From UHGV virus genome UHGV-0385622: 5,528 nt of DNA; one strand, written 5' to 3'. The DNA is from a virus. This document shows, in pieces, positions 1 through 5,528 of the stretch (its first letter is position 1; the number at the start of each line of letters is the position of its first letter). The translations under genes were made by a program, and so were the position numbers. The notes under the pieces were generated by a model. That model saw only the letters and a program-made list of their open reading frames with translations. It was not told the DNA's origin and did no database searches.

Positions 1-51
1 GAATCAAAATCGACACAGTCGAAGTATCAACAACAACAAAAATCAAGTAAC

Positions 52-357
52 ATGGACAAAAAATTCAGAAATCAGCTACTTGCTGAAAGCGGAAAAAAAG
101 AGAGCGAAATCGAAAGCGTAAACCTCGAAATCGAAGAAAGAGAGCAATCGAAAAACGGCATATTCGTGCTGATCCGCAACAAGAATAACAAATGGGTGAT
201 CACAATGTGCGGCTCGATGTTAAACGCAAAAGAATTCGACACTAAAGAAGAAGCGGAAGAACACATAGCTAAAAAAGAATGGGAAGACATCCTGACCGCA
301 ACATTCATATTCATCCTGCACGTAAACGAAGAAATGAAAAACAATCAAACAAAATAA
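52..357 (+). CDS. Hypothetical small protein (101 aa), charged K/E-rich with a short hydrophobic C-terminal stretch; function unknown
   Basis: ATG-initiated ORF on the same strand as the core genes, ending 3 nt before the capsid gene start (tight packing typical of microviruses). A TAA at 48-50 lies immediately upstream of its ATG. I recognise no motifs. The composition bias (A-rich strand) weakens ORF-length evidence. Confidence 0.4.
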   Translation: MDKKFRNQLLAESGKKESEIESVNLEIEEREQSKNGIFVLIRNKNNKWVITMCGSMLNAKEFDTKEEAEEHIAKKEWEDILTATFIFILHVNEEMKNNQTK

Positions 358-2766: not shown

Positions 2767-2798
2767 AAAGAGGGGGGATATTTCCGCCCCCCCTCTTT
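2767..2798 (+). terminator. Perfect 11-bp G/C-rich inverted repeat (AAAGAGGGGGG ... CCCCCCTCTTT) with ~10-nt loop, followed by TTTT; candidate intrinsic terminator and/or replication-origin-like hairpin
   Basis: Read directly: 2767-2777 AAAGAGGGGGG, loop ATATTTCCGC, 2788-2798 CCCCCCTCTTT, then a T at 2799. It lies in the only sizeable intergenic region (2738-2893). The G6/C7 tracts stand out in an otherwise AT-rich genome. Confidence 0.55.
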
Positions 2799-2893: not shown

Positions 2894-4102
2894 ATGAACT
2901 TCAAAGATCTACTGAAACTACTCGAAAAAGGAGAGGATGTCATGAACCCTCTCTCGGGAATCGTCGGCGATGTTTCATCAATCCTCAACACGCTGGGCGT
3001 AGGCAGCAGGAGACAGATAAGGCAGCAGAAGGAGATGGCGGAGAACGCAGCCAAAATAAATTACAAATACGGAGAATTGGCGGCGGAAAATGCATTCGAA
3101 AGACAACAAGTGTTATACAACAGGACCTATCAAGACCAAAGTTACGCCAACCAAGTCGCGCAAATGGATGCAGCGGGATTGTCTCCCGGTCTGATGTATG
3201 GCAAAGGAGGTGCCGGAGGCGGAGGAGCCGGTTCGACAACCGGTGCTCCAATGGGTGCAACAGGAGCTACAGGAGCAGGAACAGCAGCCGATCCGAATAT
3301 GCGACTGCAGGCATTGATGTCATTGCGACAGGTACGGATGAGCGAACGAAAGAACGAGGCAGAAATCAACCTGCTCAATACGCAAGCAGATGCACTCAAG
3401 GCGGAAGCAGGCAAAAACCAAGAGGAAACCCAATCGATAGTCGAAAAAAGATTGTGGCAAGTAAAACAAGAGATGTACGAAGGGTGGAAAGGTTTCATCA
3501 ATACGGCAAACCAACTATGGGACCAGATGGTAAAATGGCAGCCTACAGAGAAAACGACGATCGACGGCAAAGAAGTCGAAATACCGAAGTACTTCGAAAT
3601 AGAGGACGATAAATTCGGGAAGATCGTATTCGGAGAAGAATCATTCCAGGGCGATATGATGAAAGCCGAAAAACAAATCCTCGAAGGAACAGCGGCAATC
3701 AAAACTCTGGAGAGCATATATGCAGACGAGAAACTATCGGCAGAAGTCAGAAAAATAAACGCGGACGCATGCAGCGCAATGGCTCAAGCAGCTTACTACT
3801 ACGCAGCTGGCGAAACCCAAAAAGCAGAGGCAAAAGTACTCGAAGCAAAAAAGAGGACCGAAGAAGCAACCGCCGATCTGCGAGAACTCCAATATTGGAC
3901 CGAAATAGCAAACACGATCCTCAAGCTGGCGCAAGTAGTAGGAAACATGGTAATCGGAGGAAAAACAGGAAAAGCGATCAGGGAATTCACAGAAAAAAAG
4001 ATGAACAATACTCCCCCCATGAACTCATCGACAGTAACACAACACTACGATCCGGAGATGAAATTCAAAGGAGTAGATAAGACCGTAACGACAAAATGGT
4101 AG
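2894..4102 (+). CDS. VP2: Microviridae DNA pilot / minor capsid protein (VP2 / H-protein functional analogue), 402 aa
   Basis: N-terminal ..QMDAAGLSPGLMYGKGG.. resembles the AAGLNP-type motif I recall near the N-terminus of gokushovirus VP2 proteins. A Gly/Ala/Thr-rich low-complexity tract follows (~3200-3292). The C-terminal half is long, charged and helical (KAEAGKNQEETQ..., ..EAKVLEAKKRTEEATADLRELQYW..), as expected for a pilot protein forming a coiled-coil tube. It sits between the capsid and Rep genes. An alternative in-frame start is at 2942 (MNPLSGIVG...). Confidence 0.78.
   Translation: MNFKDLLKLLEKGEDVMNPLSGIVGDVSSILNTLGVGSRRQIRQQKEMAENAAKINYKYGELAAENAFERQQVLYNRTYQDQSYANQVAQMDAAGLSPGLMYGKGGAGGGGAGSTTGAPMGATGATGAGTAADPNMRLQALMSLRQVRMSERKNEAEINLLNTQADALKAEAGKNQEETQSIVEKRLWQVKQEMYEGWKGFINTANQLWDQMVKWQPTEKTTIDGKEVEIPKYFEIEDDKFGKIVFGEESFQGDMMKAEKQILEGTAAIKTLESIYADEKLSAEVRKINADACSAMAQAAYYYAAGETQKAEAKVLEAKKRTEEATADLRELQYWTEIANTILKLAQVVGNMVIGGKTGKAIREFTEKKMNNTPPMNSSTVTQHYDPEMKFKGVDKTVTTKW
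3200..3292 (+). repeat. Gly/Ala/Thr-rich low-complexity coding tract inside VP2 (GKGGAGGGGAGSTTGAPMGATGATGAGTAAD)
   Basis: Read from the translation: runs of GGN/GCN codons, a local GC spike. Gly-rich linkers are typical of microvirus pilot proteins. Confidence 0.6.
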
Positions 4103-4140: not shown

Positions 4141-5052
4141 GTGTGTCTATATCCAAGTACCATAGAGAATCCAAAGTACGCCAAATCGAACGAAAACGCT
4201 AAAAGAATAAGAGACCGTCGTCTGAGATGGATACAAATTCCATGCGGACACTGCGAAGAATGCAGACGCGCAAAAGCAAATGAATGGAGAGTAAGATTGA
4301 TGGAAGAAATAAAATCCAATCCGAAAAATACTATATTTGCAACGCTGACGTTCTCAGAAGAAAGCCTAAAGAAATTAGAATATGACGAAAACGAACCGAA
4401 CAAAACACCTCAAAAAGCAGTCAGCCTATTCAGAAAACGATGGTGGAAAAAGTATAAAAAACCACTCAAACACTGGCTAATCACAGAAATGGGACACGAC
4501 AATACCAAAAGAATACATCTGCACGGCATTATATGGACAGAACTAACAGAGGAACAATTCGAAAAAGAATGGGGGTACGGCTGGATATTCTTCGGGTATG
4601 AAGTAAACGAAAAAACAATAAACTACATCGTAAAATACATAACGAAAAAAGACGAAGACAACCCTGAATTCAACGGAAAGATATTCACCTCAAAAAGAAT
4701 CGGAATAAACTACATAAACAAAAACACACTCAACAGGCATAGATATCAGGATAAATTCACAGAAGAAACATACAGAACAAATTCAGGAATAAAAACAGCA
4801 CTACCAGCATACTACAGACAAAAAATATGGACAGATCAAGAACGCGAAGCCCTCCGGATCATAAAGGAGGAGAAACAAGTAAAATACTACAACAAAACCC
4901 CTATCAAAGTAGAAACAGTAGAGCAATACAAAGAGTATGTACACGCAGTAAAATATTGGCAGTCAATCAAAAAGTATGACGGAAAGAGAAAAGAAGGAAA
5001 TATGCAAGGCATATGCAGACCTGATCATAAAGAAGGAGAATTTAATTCGTGA
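4141..5052 (+). CDS. VP4: Rolling-circle replication initiator protein (Microviridae VP4 / phiX174 gene A family), 303 aa, GTG start
   Basis: Three canonical RCR motifs are readable. Motif 1 is FATLTF (~4336-4353). Motif 2 is RIHLHGIIW, the HxH metal-binding motif (4516-4524). Motif 3 is NYIVKYITKKDED with two Tyr four residues apart (~4624-4650), matching the phiX174 A protein pattern YVAKYVNKK. An N-terminal CGHCEEC zinc-finger-like cluster (4243-4263) and a MCLYPSTIENPKY-type N-terminus (C..P..I.NP) are common in gokushovirus VP4. No in-frame ATG lies between the upstream stop (TAA 4114-4116) and the zinc finger, so GTG at 4141 is the likely start. Confidence 0.9.
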   Translation: MCLYPSTIENPKYAKSNENAKRIRDRRLRWIQIPCGHCEECRRAKANEWRVRLMEEIKSNPKNTIFATLTFSEESLKKLEYDENEPNKTPQKAVSLFRKRWWKKYKKPLKHWLITEMGHDNTKRIHLHGIIWTELTEEQFEKEWGYGWIFFGYEVNEKTINYIVKYITKKDEDNPEFNGKIFTSKRIGINYINKNTLNRHRYQDKFTEETYRTNSGIKTALPAYYRQKIWTDQEREALRIIKEEKQVKYYNKTPIKVETVEQYKEYVHAVKYWQSIKKYDGKRKEGNMQGICRPDHKEGEFNS

Positions 5053-5055
5053 AAT

Positions 5056-5415
5056 ATGGGAAACGGAATTCGCAATCAGAAAAATAGAGAATATATTGAC
5101 CAGAAACAGGATAATAAAATCACCAAAGGAAGAGGAGACATCGGAGATAGATCCACTAATCTTACAAAACTGATCGGTGCAGAAACAGTATCCAGACGAG
5201 ACTTCATATACGAAGGAACATTCTACGTGACAGAAGACGGAGAAACATTCGACAAGGAATACGTAGATACTCAAAAACCACAAAGAACCGGCATCAGCTT
5301 CTACGAAGTAAGCAACTGGATATACAACGAAAGAAAACAACTATACGAACCTATTGTCAGAAGGATAGTAATGATCAAAAAAACCGACACTCAATTATCA
5401 CTGAACTATGAATGA
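5056..5415 (+). CDS. Hypothetical protein (119 aa), aromatic-rich C-terminal half; function unknown
   Basis: ATG 4 nt after the VP4 stop (TGA 5050-5052), same strand, tight packing. The C-terminal half (FIYEGTFYVTEDGETFDKEYVD...ISFYEVSNWIYNERKQLYEP) looks like a folded domain, not low-complexity read-through. No motif I recognise. Confidence 0.45.
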   Translation: MGNGIRNQKNREYIDQKQDNKITKGRGDIGDRSTNLTKLIGAETVSRRDFIYEGTFYVTEDGETFDKEYVDTQKPQRTGISFYEVSNWIYNERKQLYEPIVRRIVMIKKTDTQLSLNYE

Positions 5416-5528
5416 AAAAGTAAAGAAAATCGTAAAATGGATCGCGGTAATAGCAGCCGCAATCGGCGCCGCAGCCGCCGTAATCATGGAGCAAGGATGC
5501 ACTCACAAGCACTACCTCAAAGCAAACG
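5408..5528 (+). CDS. Partial ORF (continues beyond window end) for a small predicted single-pass membrane protein: MNEKVKKIVKWIAVIAAAIGAAAAVIMEQGCTHKHYLKAN...
   Basis: ATG at 5408 overlaps the stop of the preceding ORF (ATGAATGA). The N-terminus is Lys-rich (positive-inside) and is followed by a 17-residue hydrophobic stretch (WIAVIAAAIGAAAAVIM) encoded by a local GC-rich island of GCN codons. It runs off the 3' end. If the molecule is circular it continues ...GIKIDTVEVSTTTKIK and stops at the TAA at 48-50, directly before the ATG at 52. The alternative frame (ATG 5437, Arg-rich) cannot be excluded. Confidence 0.35.
   Translation, partial: MNEKVKKIVKWIAVIAAAIGAAAAVIMEQGCTHKHYLKAN

What the first reader, a model, noticed from the sequence alone, without database searches (positions are those of the whole stretch)
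5408..5528. Junction-spanning small single-pass membrane protein, a candidate lysis or membrane-targeting factor
No endolysin or phiX174 E-like gene is evident anywhere in the window. The only hydrophobic candidate is a tiny ORF starting at ATG 5408: MNEKVKKIVKW-IAVIAAAIGAAAAVIM-EQGCTHKHYLKAN..., about 56 aa if circular. It has a basic N-terminus followed by one transmembrane-length helix. That is the architecture of single-gene lysis proteins and other phage membrane effectors. The helix is encoded by a conspicuous GC-rich island (gcagccgcaatcggcgccgcagccgcc) in an A-rich genome. The overlapping alternative frame (ATG 5437) would give an Arg-rich peptide (MDRGNSSRNRRRSRRNHG...), which would resemble a J/VP8-like DNA-binding protein. 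In a circular reading that frame runs on without a stop into the next gene, so the membrane-protein frame is tidier. Gokushovirus-type microviruses have no established lysis gene, so this is worth testing.
Basis: partly seen in the sequence, partly recalled or inferred. Interest (0 to 1): 0.6.

Follow-up and report, generated by a model that had tools for sequence, protein, structure and literature searches.

The report
Tiny exported membrane/lipoprotein gene of a microvirus
The small gene that spans the ends of this circular gut-phage genome is real and strongly conserved; it encodes a 56-residue peptide built like a lipoprotein precursor, related to unannotated mini-lipoproteins of sister phages, and is the only visible candidate for how this phage breaks out of its host, though that role is untested.

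Summary
ATG 5408 opens a 56-codon ORF that runs across the window junction to TAA at 48-50. It is contiguous in 35 related genomes, so the circular reading is right. Across 35 genomes the hydrophobic frame has pN/pS 0.13 (0.04 over residues 4-31). The Arg-rich frame has pN/pS 2.4 and in-frame stops in 7 relatives, so it is refuted.

It is the only + strand ORF with a hydrophobic segment. The genome has no recognisable endolysin.

The "single-pass TM protein" reading needs revising. The layout is a basic N-terminus, a 16-residue Ala-rich hydrophobic run, an invariant [E/D]-Q-G-C, then a 25-residue tail. Profile comparisons (P 4e-5 to 2e-4; controls 0.16-0.44) and a Cys-anchored permutation test (16/200,000) link it to small proteins in the same Rep-to-VP1 slot of distant relatives. 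Those proteins carry canonical lipoboxes (FTSC, LSSC, LTSC). In ORF56 the lipobox has an acidic -3 residue and fails the PROSITE pattern (0/107). It may therefore be an atypical lipoprotein or an uncleaved anchor.

In other relatives the same slot holds M15 or DUF5675 cell-wall enzymes, some next to small TM ORFs. A lysis role is the best guess (about 0.4). It is circumstantial and nothing here tests it.

The parts
5408..5528 (+). ORF56, 5' part: codons 1-40 plus the first base of codon 41 (Gly). The start ATG overlaps the TGA of the upstream 119-aa ORF (ATGAATGA, 5408-5415).
   Evidence: ORF coordinates, contiguity in relatives, and pN/pS 0.128 in this frame.
1..50 (+). ORF56, 3' part: the last two bases of codon 41, codons 42-56, and stop TAA at 48-50. 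The next gene's ATG is at 52.
   Evidence: the circular reading gives 56 aa, and the same 168 nt plus stop are contiguous in 35 related contigs.
5408..5440 (+). Basic n-region M1-W11 (MNEKVKKIVKW; K4, K6, K7, K10). Predicted to lie in the cytoplasm.
   Evidence: E3, K4, K6, K10 and W11 are invariant. The topology is inferred from the positive-inside rule.
5441..5488 (+). Hydrophobic h-region I12-M27 (IAVIAAAIGAAAAVIM). It has 16 uncharged residues and small-xxx-small motifs.
   Evidence: pN/pS 0.037 over codons 4-31, with pS 0.37. AlphaFold helix over residues 3-29; 64% GC. KD17 of 2.44.
5489..5500 (+). Invariant E28-Q29-G30-C31 motif. It sits at the lipobox position, but with an acidic residue at -3.
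   Evidence: [E/D]-[Q/H]-G-C in all 120 family members; it fails the PROSITE PS00013-type pattern (0 of 107); it aligns to the F-T-S-C lipobox of group E proteins.
5501..5528 (+). Tail, first part (T32 to N40, plus the first base of G41). Predicted to lie in the periplasm.
   Evidence: pN/pS 0.27. K38, A39 and G41 are invariant.
1..47 (+). Tail, second part (G41 to K56). It carries the motif G-I-K-I-D-T-V-E-V, shared with the small lipoproteins of relatives (G-L-H-A-D-S-V-E-V).
   Evidence: in a Cys-anchored ungapped comparison with the group E tail, 16 of 200,000 permutations reach the observed score; a D-[ST] motif recurs across groups.
5056..5415 (+). Context: the upstream 119-aa ORF of unknown function, probably translationally coupled to ORF56.
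   Evidence: the same order (118/119-aa ORF, 56-aa ORF, 101-aa ORF, VP1) with 4-8 nt overlaps is seen in relatives.
52..357 (+). Context: the downstream 101-aa ORF. It is conserved directly upstream of VP1 (361-2409) across the lineage.
   Evidence: homologues lie immediately before VP1 in distant relatives.

Best explanation
ORF56 is a genuine late-operon gene of a circular 5.5-kb gut microvirus. It encodes a 56-residue peptide that is directed to the cell envelope.

**Anatomy**
- A Lys-rich N-terminus (inferred to stay in the cytoplasm).
- A 16-residue Ala/Ile hydrophobic helix, acting as a Sec-type signal or anchor.
- An invariant [E/D]-Q-G-C31.
- A 25-residue basic tail (inferred to lie in the periplasm).

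**Family**
It is a divergent member of an unannotated set of tiny lipobox proteins. Their mature parts are 26-45 aa. Related microviruses encode them in the same slot, between Rep (or the small ORF downstream of Rep) and the ORF that precedes VP1.

**Ancestry and processing**
The ancestral state is a lipoprotein precursor, with Cys31 as the acylated +1 Cys. In this clade the lipobox -3 position has become acidic and is kept so. The product is therefore either an atypical, perhaps slowly processed, lipoprotein or an uncleaved N-in/C-out signal-anchored peptide. I put these at roughly even odds.

**Function (inferred, not shown)**
It is the phage's lysis or egress effector. It would accumulate in the inner membrane and periplasm late in infection and compromise the envelope, in one of two ways:
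- in the manner of small bacteriolytic lipoproteins (colicin lysis/bacteriocin-release proteins, entericidin B), where both the persistent hydrophobic signal peptide and the short lipopeptide contribute; or
- through its highly constrained helix binding a membrane enzyme of cell-wall synthesis, as in single-gene lysis proteins.

**Probabilities**
- Real gene for an envelope-targeted peptide: about 0.95.
- Relationship to the lipobox proteins: about 0.7.
- Lysis role: about 0.4.
For: **It is a gene**
- pN/pS is 0.128, and 0.037 over the N-terminus plus helix, with free synonymous change.
- It is intact in all 36 close relatives that cover the region.
- 190 homologues were found; 103 of the 120 listed are exactly 56 aa.

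**Envelope targeting**
- The n-region, h-region and G-C layout is visible in the sequence.
- AlphaFold predicts a helix over residues 3-29.

**Lipoprotein ancestry**
- About 20 of 52 distant complete genomes (VP1 37-57% identical) carry a small ORF in the same slot. It has a hydrophobic segment followed by LTSC, VQSC, FTSC, LSSC, TTGC, GVSC, LLAC or IGGC.
- hhalign of the ORF56 profile gives:
  - against group E: P 4e-5 and 1.3e-4, probability 70% and 53%, over 44 columns;
  - against group B/B': P 1.8e-4.
- The Cys aligns with the Cys in every case.
- Groups E and B' are themselves related (P 6e-10).
- Unrelated lipoprotein precursors give P 0.16-0.44.
- In a tail-only, Cys-anchored permutation test, 16 of 200,000 shuffles reach the observed score.

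**Lysis inference**
- ORF56 is the only hydrophobic + strand ORF.
- No endolysin or E homologue was found.
- In other relatives the same slot holds Peptidase_M15_3, LAS-like or DUF5675/Tlde1/YkuD-like cell-wall enzymes. In L085, L095 and L101 a 32-46-aa TM ORF follows the enzyme directly.
- None of the 6 complete enzyme-bearing genomes has a lipobox ORF, against about 20 of 44 without an enzyme.
- Published work places lysis-associated accessory genes between VP4 and VP1 in several microvirus families (PMC9239249; PMC3394797).
- The gene is never seen on contigs longer than 10 kb (139 blocks). This fits a lytic or episomal lifestyle better than a lysogen-protecting function.
Against: - No experiment and no homology to any characterised lysis protein. 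Pfam, PHROGs, NCBIfam and PDB give nothing.
- The lipobox fails the PROSITE-type pattern because of Glu/Asp at -3, in 0 of 107 family members. Lipidation is therefore doubtful.
- The homology to the lipobox proteins is moderate (probability 48-70%). Group E was picked after the fact from about 8 groups.
- hhalign against group C is not significant (probability 5.7%).
- An exhaustive profile search finds only the close family.
- 22 of 52 distant genomes have neither a small hydrophobic ORF nor an enzyme in the slot. The slot is therefore not a universal lysis locus.
- The enzyme/lipobox exclusivity is weak (hypergeometric P about 0.04) and is not corrected for phylogeny.
- The host is unknown. 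The one link to Bacteroidales DNA is a poly-G chimeric contig.
- A tiny periplasmic lipoprotein fits receptor masking equally well.
Confidence: 0.42

Rival explanations
1. It is a superinfection-exclusion or receptor-masking lipoprotein, working like T5 Llp or phi80/N15 Cor. The exported (lipo)peptide would sit on the periplasmic side of the envelope and inactivate the phage receptor. This would protect the infected cell from secondary infection and protect progeny from being wasted on cell debris.
For: - It has the architecture of a small periplasm-facing lipoprotein. There is no acidic surface-export signal after the Cys, either in ORF56 or in most relatives.
- Known phage lipoproteins of this size class do this job (Llp; PMC9586334, listed).
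- The gene is an accessory-type gene, absent from many related genomes (22 of 52 lack any such ORF). That pattern suits a dispensable function.
Against: - It is retained in 36 of 36 close relatives under strong purifying selection. A genome of only seven genes has little room for luxury functions.
- There is no prophage evidence.
- The hydrophobic N-terminal part is more constrained than the tail (pN/pS 0.037 against 0.27). For a receptor-binding mature domain with an interchangeable signal peptide, the opposite would be expected.
- The 25-aa tail is much shorter than Llp or Cor (about 60 aa; from my own knowledge).
- This explanation leaves the genome with no lysis candidate at all.
Confidence: 0.2
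2. ORF56 is an uncleaved single-pass membrane protein that works like phiX174 E or LysM. Its TM helix would bind and block a membrane step of peptidoglycan precursor synthesis (MraY- or MurJ-type targets), causing septal lysis. The Cys and tail would be secondary.
For: - The helix is nearly invariant, with small-xxx-small packing motifs and pN/pS 0.037.
- The acidic -3 residue argues against SPase II processing.
- There is no SPase I site (inspection of the sequence).
- No endolysin is present.
Against: - There is no homology to E or LysM, no helix proline, and the gene is not overprinted.
- The hydrophobic run has only 16 residues.
- G30 and C31 are invariant. They align to the lipobox G/S-C of relatives whose tails are homologous.
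- In group C proteins the N-terminal segment has been swapped while the mature part stayed identical. This points to the exported part as a functional unit in the wider family.
Confidence: 0.2
3. It is a non-lytic membrane factor. Examples would be a membrane anchor or organiser for replication or assembly, an anti-defence peptide, or a modulator of a carrier-state infection.
For: - Nothing ties the protein to lysis directly.
- Many related genomes lack any counterpart.
- Small peptides of about 65 aa with no assignable function are common in microviruses (PMC9239249).
Against: - The same slot holds recognisable cell-wall enzymes and holin-like ORFs in relatives.
- An exported tail with a conserved Cys is not expected for a cytoplasmic assembly factor.
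Confidence: 0.13
4. The overlapping Arg-rich frame (ATG 5437) is the real gene and encodes a J/VP8-like DNA-binding protein. Alternatively, the ORF is spurious.
Against: - In that frame pN/pS is 2.4 overall and 13 over the helix region.
- There are in-frame stops in L007, L008, L012, L014, L018, L019, L025 and L028.
- The hydrophobic frame shows a clear pattern of third-position variation.
Confidence: 0.01

Closest known systems
Colicin lysis proteins / bacteriocin release proteins (Pfam Lysis_col), e.g. ColE2 lysis protein, pCloDF13 BRP
   Same: - The precursor is 45-56 aa, with a basic N-terminus, a hydrophobic signal peptide and a Cys.
- The exported peptide is about 26-28 aa.
- The signal peptide itself is functionally important and conserved. 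For BRPs this is from my own knowledge; for ORF56 it comes.
- The outcome is envelope permeabilisation or quasi-lysis by a single small gene.
   Different: - No sequence relationship: no Pfam hit and hhalign P 0.16.
- BRPs have a canonical lipobox (L-S-A-C), while ORF56 has E-Q-G-C.
- BRPs are plasmid genes of Enterobacteria that release colicins, not virions.
- Activity of ORF56 is untested.
Entericidin B (EcnB), a small bacteriolytic lipoprotein of E. coli
   Same: It is a tiny lipoprotein precursor (48 aa) that gives a mature peptide of about 27 aa with lytic activity (from my own knowledge).
   Different: - No similarity (hhalign P 0.44).
- EcnB is chromosomal and has an antidote paralogue.
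- The mature EcnB peptide is an amphipathic helix, whereas the ORF56 tail is predicted to be non-helical at low confidence.
phiX174 E and levivirus LysM single-gene lysis proteins
   Same: - Both are small-genome phages in which one small membrane protein is the only lysis candidate.
- The TM helix carries the sequence constraint.
   Different: - E is overprinted inside gene D, has a cytoplasmic C-terminal domain and an essential helix proline, and has no lipobox-like Cys.
- ORF56 is a stand-alone gene with an exported tail.
- There is no homology.
Phage superinfection-exclusion lipoproteins (T5 Llp, phi80/N15 Cor)
   Same: Both are phage-encoded small lipoproteins facing the periplasm (PMC9586334).
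   Different: - Their mature domains are about 60 aa and folded.
- They have canonical lipoboxes.
- There is no sequence similarity.
- In ORF56 the N-terminal segment is more constrained than the tail.
Small lipobox proteins in the Rep-to-VP1 slot of related uncultured microviruses (groups B, B', C, D, E defined here; databases call them 'hypothetical protein')
   Same: - Same genomic slot, same size class and same layout.
- The Cys is in register.
- The tail motif G-x3-D-[ST]-V-E-V is shared with group E.
- Supporting calls: 72, 73, 79, 80, 83.
   Different: - Those proteins have uncharged -3 residues (L, F, V, I, T, A, G), whereas ORF56 always has E or D.
- Sequence similarity is only moderate.
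- None of them has a known function.

Membership tests
Bacterial prolipoprotein (Lgt/LspA substrate; PROSITE PS00013-type lipobox) | A basic n-region with K/R in the first 7 residues, and the Cys between positions 15 and 35. | tested here: met
   K4, K6 and K7 are present, and the Cys is at position 31.
Bacterial prolipoprotein (Lgt/LspA substrate; PROSITE PS00013-type lipobox) | Lipobox [LIVMFWSTAG](2)-[LIVMFYSTAGCQ]-[AGS]-C, with an uncharged -3 residue. | tested here: not met
   The sequence is M-E-Q-G-C. Positions -1 (G) and -2 (Q) are allowed, but -3 is Glu (Asp in one member). 0 of 107 family members match. The pattern was written from my memory of PROSITE.
Bacterial prolipoprotein (Lgt/LspA substrate; PROSITE PS00013-type lipobox) | Acylation of the Cys and globomycin-sensitive cleavage. 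| not testable with these tools
   This needs labelling or mass spectrometry. SignalP and LipoP were not available.
Microviral small lipobox proteins of the Rep-to-VP1 slot (defined here) | Same syntenic position: after Rep (and any small ORF downstream of it), and before the conserved ORF that precedes VP1. | tested here: met
Microviral small lipobox proteins of the Rep-to-VP1 slot (defined here) | Detectable sequence relationship with the Cys in register. | tested here: met
   hhalign gives P 4e-5, 1.3e-4 and 1.8e-4 against controls of 0.16-0.44. The permutation test gives 16 of 200,000. Strength is moderate. Group C is not significant.
Microviral small lipobox proteins of the Rep-to-VP1 slot (defined here) | Canonical lipobox immediately before the Cys. 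| tested here: not met
   ORF56 has an acidic -3 residue, whereas the relatives have L, F, V, I, T, A or G there.
phiX174 E-type lysis protein | Homology to E (Pfam/PHROG), a gene overprinted within the scaffold gene, and a proline in the TM helix. | tested here: not met
   There are no family hits. The gene stands alone with only an 8-nt overlap. The helix has no Pro.
Colicin lysis protein / BRP (Pfam Lysis_col) | Sequence membership. | tested here: not met
   No Pfam hit at E of 0.1 or better, and hhalign P 0.16. The resemblance is in architecture only.
Holin (partner of an endolysin) | A small TM protein encoded next to a muralytic enzyme. | tested here: not met
   No muralytic enzyme is found in the window or in the ORF56 clade. 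Such cassettes do exist in relatives L085, L095 and L101.
Spanin (o-spanin Rz1 / u-spanin) | An outer-membrane lipoprotein together with an i-spanin partner or a C-terminal TM domain. | tested here: not met
   There is no second TM protein on the + strand and no C-terminal hydrophobic segment.
DUF6486 / NCBIfam 'smalltalk protein' (Bacteroidota) | A match to PF20096 or NF033879. | tested here: not met
   ORF56 and P0002 give no hit at E of 5 or better. Only the swapped N-terminus of P0196-198 matches (E 2e-10).
J/VP8-like Arg-rich DNA-binding protein (alternative frame) | Conservation of that reading frame in relatives. | tested here: not met
   pN/pS is 2.4, and 7-8 relatives have stops in that frame.

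The most novel reading that the evidence does not exclude
Tiny lipoproteins (mature part 26-45 aa), encoded between Rep and VP1, are the long-missing lysis system of a large group of gut microviruses. On this reading:
- they would be a lipoprotein-type single-gene lysis protein, mechanistically akin to bacteriocin release proteins and not previously described for any phage;
- ORF56 would be a derived form in which an acidic -3 residue tunes or blocks lipoprotein processing, for example to time lysis.
Probability: 0.25. Interest if true: 0.8.

Novelty: new variant of a known kind. Interest (0 to 1): 0.6.

Why it matters
- **The open question.** How microviruses outside the phiX174 group lyse their hosts is not established. 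Only occasional M15 peptidases have been proposed (PMC3394797, PMC9239249).
- **What this work supplies.** It defines a concrete, testable candidate: a strongly conserved 56-aa envelope peptide. It also shows that sister genomes carry a diverse, unannotated set of mini-lipoproteins in the same slot, which elsewhere holds cell-wall enzymes.
- **If these proteins are lytic.** They would be a new class of phage "protein antibiotic" active against gut anaerobes, probably Bacteroidales.
- **If they mask receptors instead.** They would be the smallest known exclusion factors.
- **For annotation.** Either way, the gene should be annotated across the linearisation junction, where routine annotation of linear records would miss it.

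Tried and rejected
- **Whole-window megablast** against INPHARED phages found no match. tblastn of ORF56 and of the P0196 N-terminus against phages also found nothing, probably because of low-complexity masking.
- **Family libraries.** Pfam, PHROGs and NCBIfam gave no significant family for ORF56. The weak hits (phrog_7696 at E 0.02-0.04, SPW_0924 at E 0.84) were disregarded. The PDB sequence search gave nothing.
- **Exhaustive profile search** of 1.84 billion representatives returned only the close family, chimeric fragments and two repeat proteins judged to be chance matches.
- **The third homologue search**, with the smalltalk-like N-terminus, returned only the three query-type proteins. 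The DUF6486 genomic context could not be explored.
- **AlphaFold** gave only a helix (residues 3-29) and a low-confidence tail (pLDDT about 50). No fold search was attempted.
- **Host identification:**
  - The genome-contig scan found only a free 5.7-kb scaffold in an Acinetobacter lwoffii assembly, probably a contaminant.
  - The 11.6-kb contig L077 joins a clade member to Bacteroidales genes, but the join is a poly-G run. It was rejected as a chimera.
  - The Bacteroides promoter motif TAnnTTTG is not enriched. The sigma-70 and terminator scans are at background.
- **Searching viral contigs with the DUF5675 ORF** found only the two genomes already held.
- **L067's 68-aa slot ORF** shares a 'THKH' string with ORF56. 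This was judged coincidental, because that ORF appears, from inspection of its sequence, to belong to the non-hydrophobic family encoded downstream of Rep.
- **Literature searches** found no description of microviral small lipoproteins or of this gene.
Full report
**What the window is.**
The 5528-nt window is a complete microvirus genome. It is A-rich (39.6% A), and all genes lie on the + strand.
- 101-aa ORF: 52-357.
- Major capsid protein VP1: 361-2409 (Pfam Phage_F, phrog_514).
- 107-aa ORF: 2414-2737.
- DNA pilot protein VP2: 2894-4102.
- Replication initiator: 4141-5052 (PF23343, phrog_942).
- 119-aa ORF: 5056-5415.

No endolysin, peptidase or phiX174 E homologue is detectable. The closest named relatives are uncultured faecal microviruses at 56% VP1 identity or less. 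About 37 IMG/VR contigs share 80-93% VP1 identity.

**Check of the observation.**
ATG 5408 opens an ORF that leaves the window after 40 codons plus one base.
- The window has no terminal repeat.
- The same 168 nt plus stop lie uninterrupted inside 35 related contigs that are linearised elsewhere.
- Gene callers report a 56-aa product on 6 of 6 contigs examined, always in the order 118/119-aa ORF, 56-aa ORF, 101-aa ORF, VP1, with overlaps of 4-8 nt.
- The circular reading is therefore correct.
- The start overlaps the upstream stop (ATGAATGA), which suggests translational coupling.
- The GC-rich island is real (64% against 43%). It is simply the Ala and Gly codons of the helix.

**Which frame is coding.**
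I aligned 35 distinct genomes without gaps.
- In the hydrophobic frame, diversity is 0.05, 0.03 and 0.22 at codon positions 1, 2 and 3. pN/pS is 0.128 overall, 0.037 for residues 4-31 and 0.27 for residues 32-55.
- The Arg-rich frame has pN/pS 2.4 and acquires stop codons in 7-8 relatives. The J/VP8-like alternative is refuted.
- That frame also does terminate in this genome, at 119-121 (70 codons).

A database search found 190 homologues, at 79-96% identity among the 120 listed. Of those 120, 103 are exactly 56 aa, and one is labelled "hypothetical protein [Microviridae sp.]".

**Anatomy.**
- Residues 1-11 are basic (K4, K6, K7, K10, W11).
- Residues 12-27 are 16 uncharged residues (IAVIAAAIGAAAAVIM) rich in small-xxx-small motifs.
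- Residues 28-31 are [E/D]-[Q/H]-G-C in all 120 sequences examined.
- The tail, THKHYLKANGIKIDTVEVSTTTKIK, has invariant K38, A39, G41 and D45.
- AlphaFold gives a helix over residues 3-29 and an unconfident tail.
- On the + strand this is the only ORF of at least 20 aa, in any frame, with a hydrophobic segment. The many hydrophobic ORFs on the - strand are a by-product of its T-richness.

**What relatives carry at this position.**
I surveyed the interval between Rep and VP1 in 52 complete genomes whose VP1 is 37-57% identical.
- About 20 carry a small ORF with a basic N-terminus, a hydrophobic run and a canonical lipobox plus Cys. They fall into at least eight sequence groups. Examples:
  - ...VVLLTS|C NAKQFVSQSAS...
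  - ...AYLLSS|C TVTHKVVQSAYNTATGDSIIIRYEQ...
  - ...TTLTVQS|C TMSMSIFKNNN...
  - ...ILMFTS|C SASYMLHKKGLHADSVEVWIKTKTNNAAY
  - ...WLGVS|C TNML...
  - ...MIGG|C ESTIVV...
- About 9 carry a small TM ORF without a Cys motif.
- About 22 carry neither.

ORF56 aligns to these proteins with its Cys on their Cys.
- hhalign of the ORF56 profile against the L080 protein gives probability 70% and P 4e-5 over 44 columns.
- Against the group E alignment it gives 53% and P 1.3e-4.
- Against groups B/B' it gives 48% and P 1.8e-4.
- Groups E and B' are clearly related to each other (96.6%, P 6e-10).
- Three unrelated lipoprotein precursors used as controls give P 0.16-0.44.
- I aligned the tail alone to the group E tail, without gaps and counting from the Cys. 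It scores BLOSUM62 32, with 8 of 25 identities, including L, G and D-[ST]-V-E-V. Only 16 of 200,000 permutations reach that score.
- Allowing for the post-hoc choice among about eight groups, this remains significant.
- Group C is not significantly similar. An exhaustive HMM search finds only the close family.

I conclude, with moderate confidence, that ORF56 is a divergent member of this microviral mini-lipoprotein set.

**The lipobox problem.**
E28-Q29-G30 aligns to F/L-T-S.
- G at -1 and Q at -2 are acceptable lipobox residues.
- The acidic -3 residue violates the PROSITE-type rule. 0 of 107 family members match. Relatives match only when their -4 residue and their Cys position also comply.
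- The acidic residue is itself conserved (E, with D once).
- Inspection shows no SPase I site.

So the clade either retains an atypical, perhaps slow, lipoprotein processing, or has become an uncleaved N-in/C-out anchor that keeps the G-C for another reason. I cannot decide between these with the tools available.

The hydrophobic part is more constrained than the tail. In typical lipoproteins the opposite holds (from my own knowledge). This resembles bacteriocin release proteins, whose signal peptide is itself active.

In group C, three proteins carry an identical mature part behind a different N-terminal segment, one that matches the Bacteroidota family DUF6486/"smalltalk". The two parts therefore behave as modules.

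**Function.**
Nothing demonstrates it. The case for lysis is contextual.
1. No other candidate exists in this genome.
2. The same slot in other relatives encodes cell-wall enzymes.
   - Peptidase_M15_3 in L095 and L098.
   - DUF5675/Tlde1/YkuD-like proteins in L041, L052 and L096.
   - LAS-like proteins in L085 and L101.
   - In L085, L095 and L101 a 32-46-aa TM ORF follows the enzyme directly, like a holin-endolysin pair.
3. None of the six complete enzyme-bearing genomes has a lipobox ORF, against about 20 of 44 others. This gives P about 0.04, uncorrected for phylogeny.
4. Published surveys place lysis-associated accessory genes between VP4 and VP1 in several microvirus families. They leave small peptides of about 65 aa unassigned (PMC9239249; PMC3394797).
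5. The gene is retained in every close relative and is never seen on contigs above 10 kb.

Against this, many relatives have nothing in the slot. A periplasm-facing mini-lipoprotein would also suit receptor masking of the Llp/Cor type.

My probabilities are:
- exclusion, about 0.2;
- other roles, about 0.13.

**Host.**
- No gene has a Shine-Dalgarno sequence at working distance.
- The relatives' lipoboxes are of the ...[TS]-S-C type.
- One relative has acquired a Bacteroidota-family signal segment.

These observations fit a Bacteroidota host but do not prove one. The single contig that joins a clade member to Bacteroidales DNA is joined at a poly-G run and is best read as a chimera.

**Novelty.**
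None of the literature searches found a description of microviral small lipoproteins or of this gene. Databases list it only as hypothetical. I rate it a new variant of a known kind, namely a small phage- or plasmid-encoded envelope-active (lipo)peptide. It has real value as a testable lysis candidate for a microvirus group whose lysis mechanism is unknown.

Noticed in passing
window 2767-2798: There is a perfect 12-bp G/C-rich hairpin (AAAGAGGGGGG...CCCCCCTCTTT) in the 156-nt intergenic region between the 107-aa ORF and VP2. It could be a replication origin or a terminator element.
   Followed up: no
L077 1-11646 (IMGVR_UViG_3300007105_000184): This contig holds a complete clade genome (3-5542) joined to Bacteroidales chromosomal genes. 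These are an AAA ATPase identical to WP_178611833.1, two Arm-DNA-bind_5/Phage_int_SAM_5 integrases and a zeta toxin. The join is a poly-G run inside the VP2 Gly-rich region, and the contig starts with G15. It is most likely a chimeric assembly and not a prophage.
   Followed up: yes
L070 (NZ_JACWEU010000076.1, 5673 nt): A free scaffold in an Acinetobacter lwoffii genome assembly is a microvirus of this clade (83% VP1 identity). It is probably sequencing or sample contamination and not a host signal.
   Followed up: partly
P0196-P0198 (69 aa; contigs up to 6087 nt): Group C small lipoproteins with an identical mature peptide carry a replaced N-terminal signal segment. That segment matches Pfam DUF6486 / NCBIfam 'smalltalk protein' of Bacteroidota (E 2e-10). 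This is evidence of modular exchange with a host-type small protein.
   Followed up: partly
L095 468-999; L085 4606-5067; L101 366-828; L041 2388-2765; L052 1748-2131; L096 692-1147: Related microviruses carry cell-wall enzymes in the Rep-to-VP1 slot. L095 has an M15_3 peptidase and L085 and L101 a LAS-like enzyme, each immediately followed by a 32-46-aa TM ORF (a holin-like pair). L041, L052 and L096 have a DUF5675/Tlde1/YkuD-like enzyme.
   Followed up: partly
L040 2213-2365; L053 2888-3070; L055 697-879; L061 3744-3905; L116 1908-2156: A different conserved small hydrophobic protein (...VIARVIPTVNNWSGTA...; 50-82 aa) occupies the same slot in another sub-lineage. It has two hydrophobic stretches and no lipobox Cys (except VAGC in L040).
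   Followed up: no
P0131 (769 aa), P0134 (610 aa): Two long repeat proteins match only the ORF56 tail motif (LKANGIKIDT...), 6-10 times each. One is adhesin-like (LAQLKAAGLNVDTSGNV repeats). This is probably a chance or low-complexity resemblance.
   Followed up: no
window, 25 nt upstream of each of the 7 start codons: No Shine-Dalgarno motif lies at functional distance from any gene, and the leaders are A-rich. This is consistent with a Bacteroidota-type translation initiation context.
   Followed up: partly
window 3195-3290 (VP2 residues ~102-132): The pilot protein contains a Gly/Ala-rich low-complexity stretch (GKGGAGGGGAGSTTGAPMGATGATGAGTAA). In relatives the same region becomes poly-G and seeds misassemblies.
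   Followed up: partly
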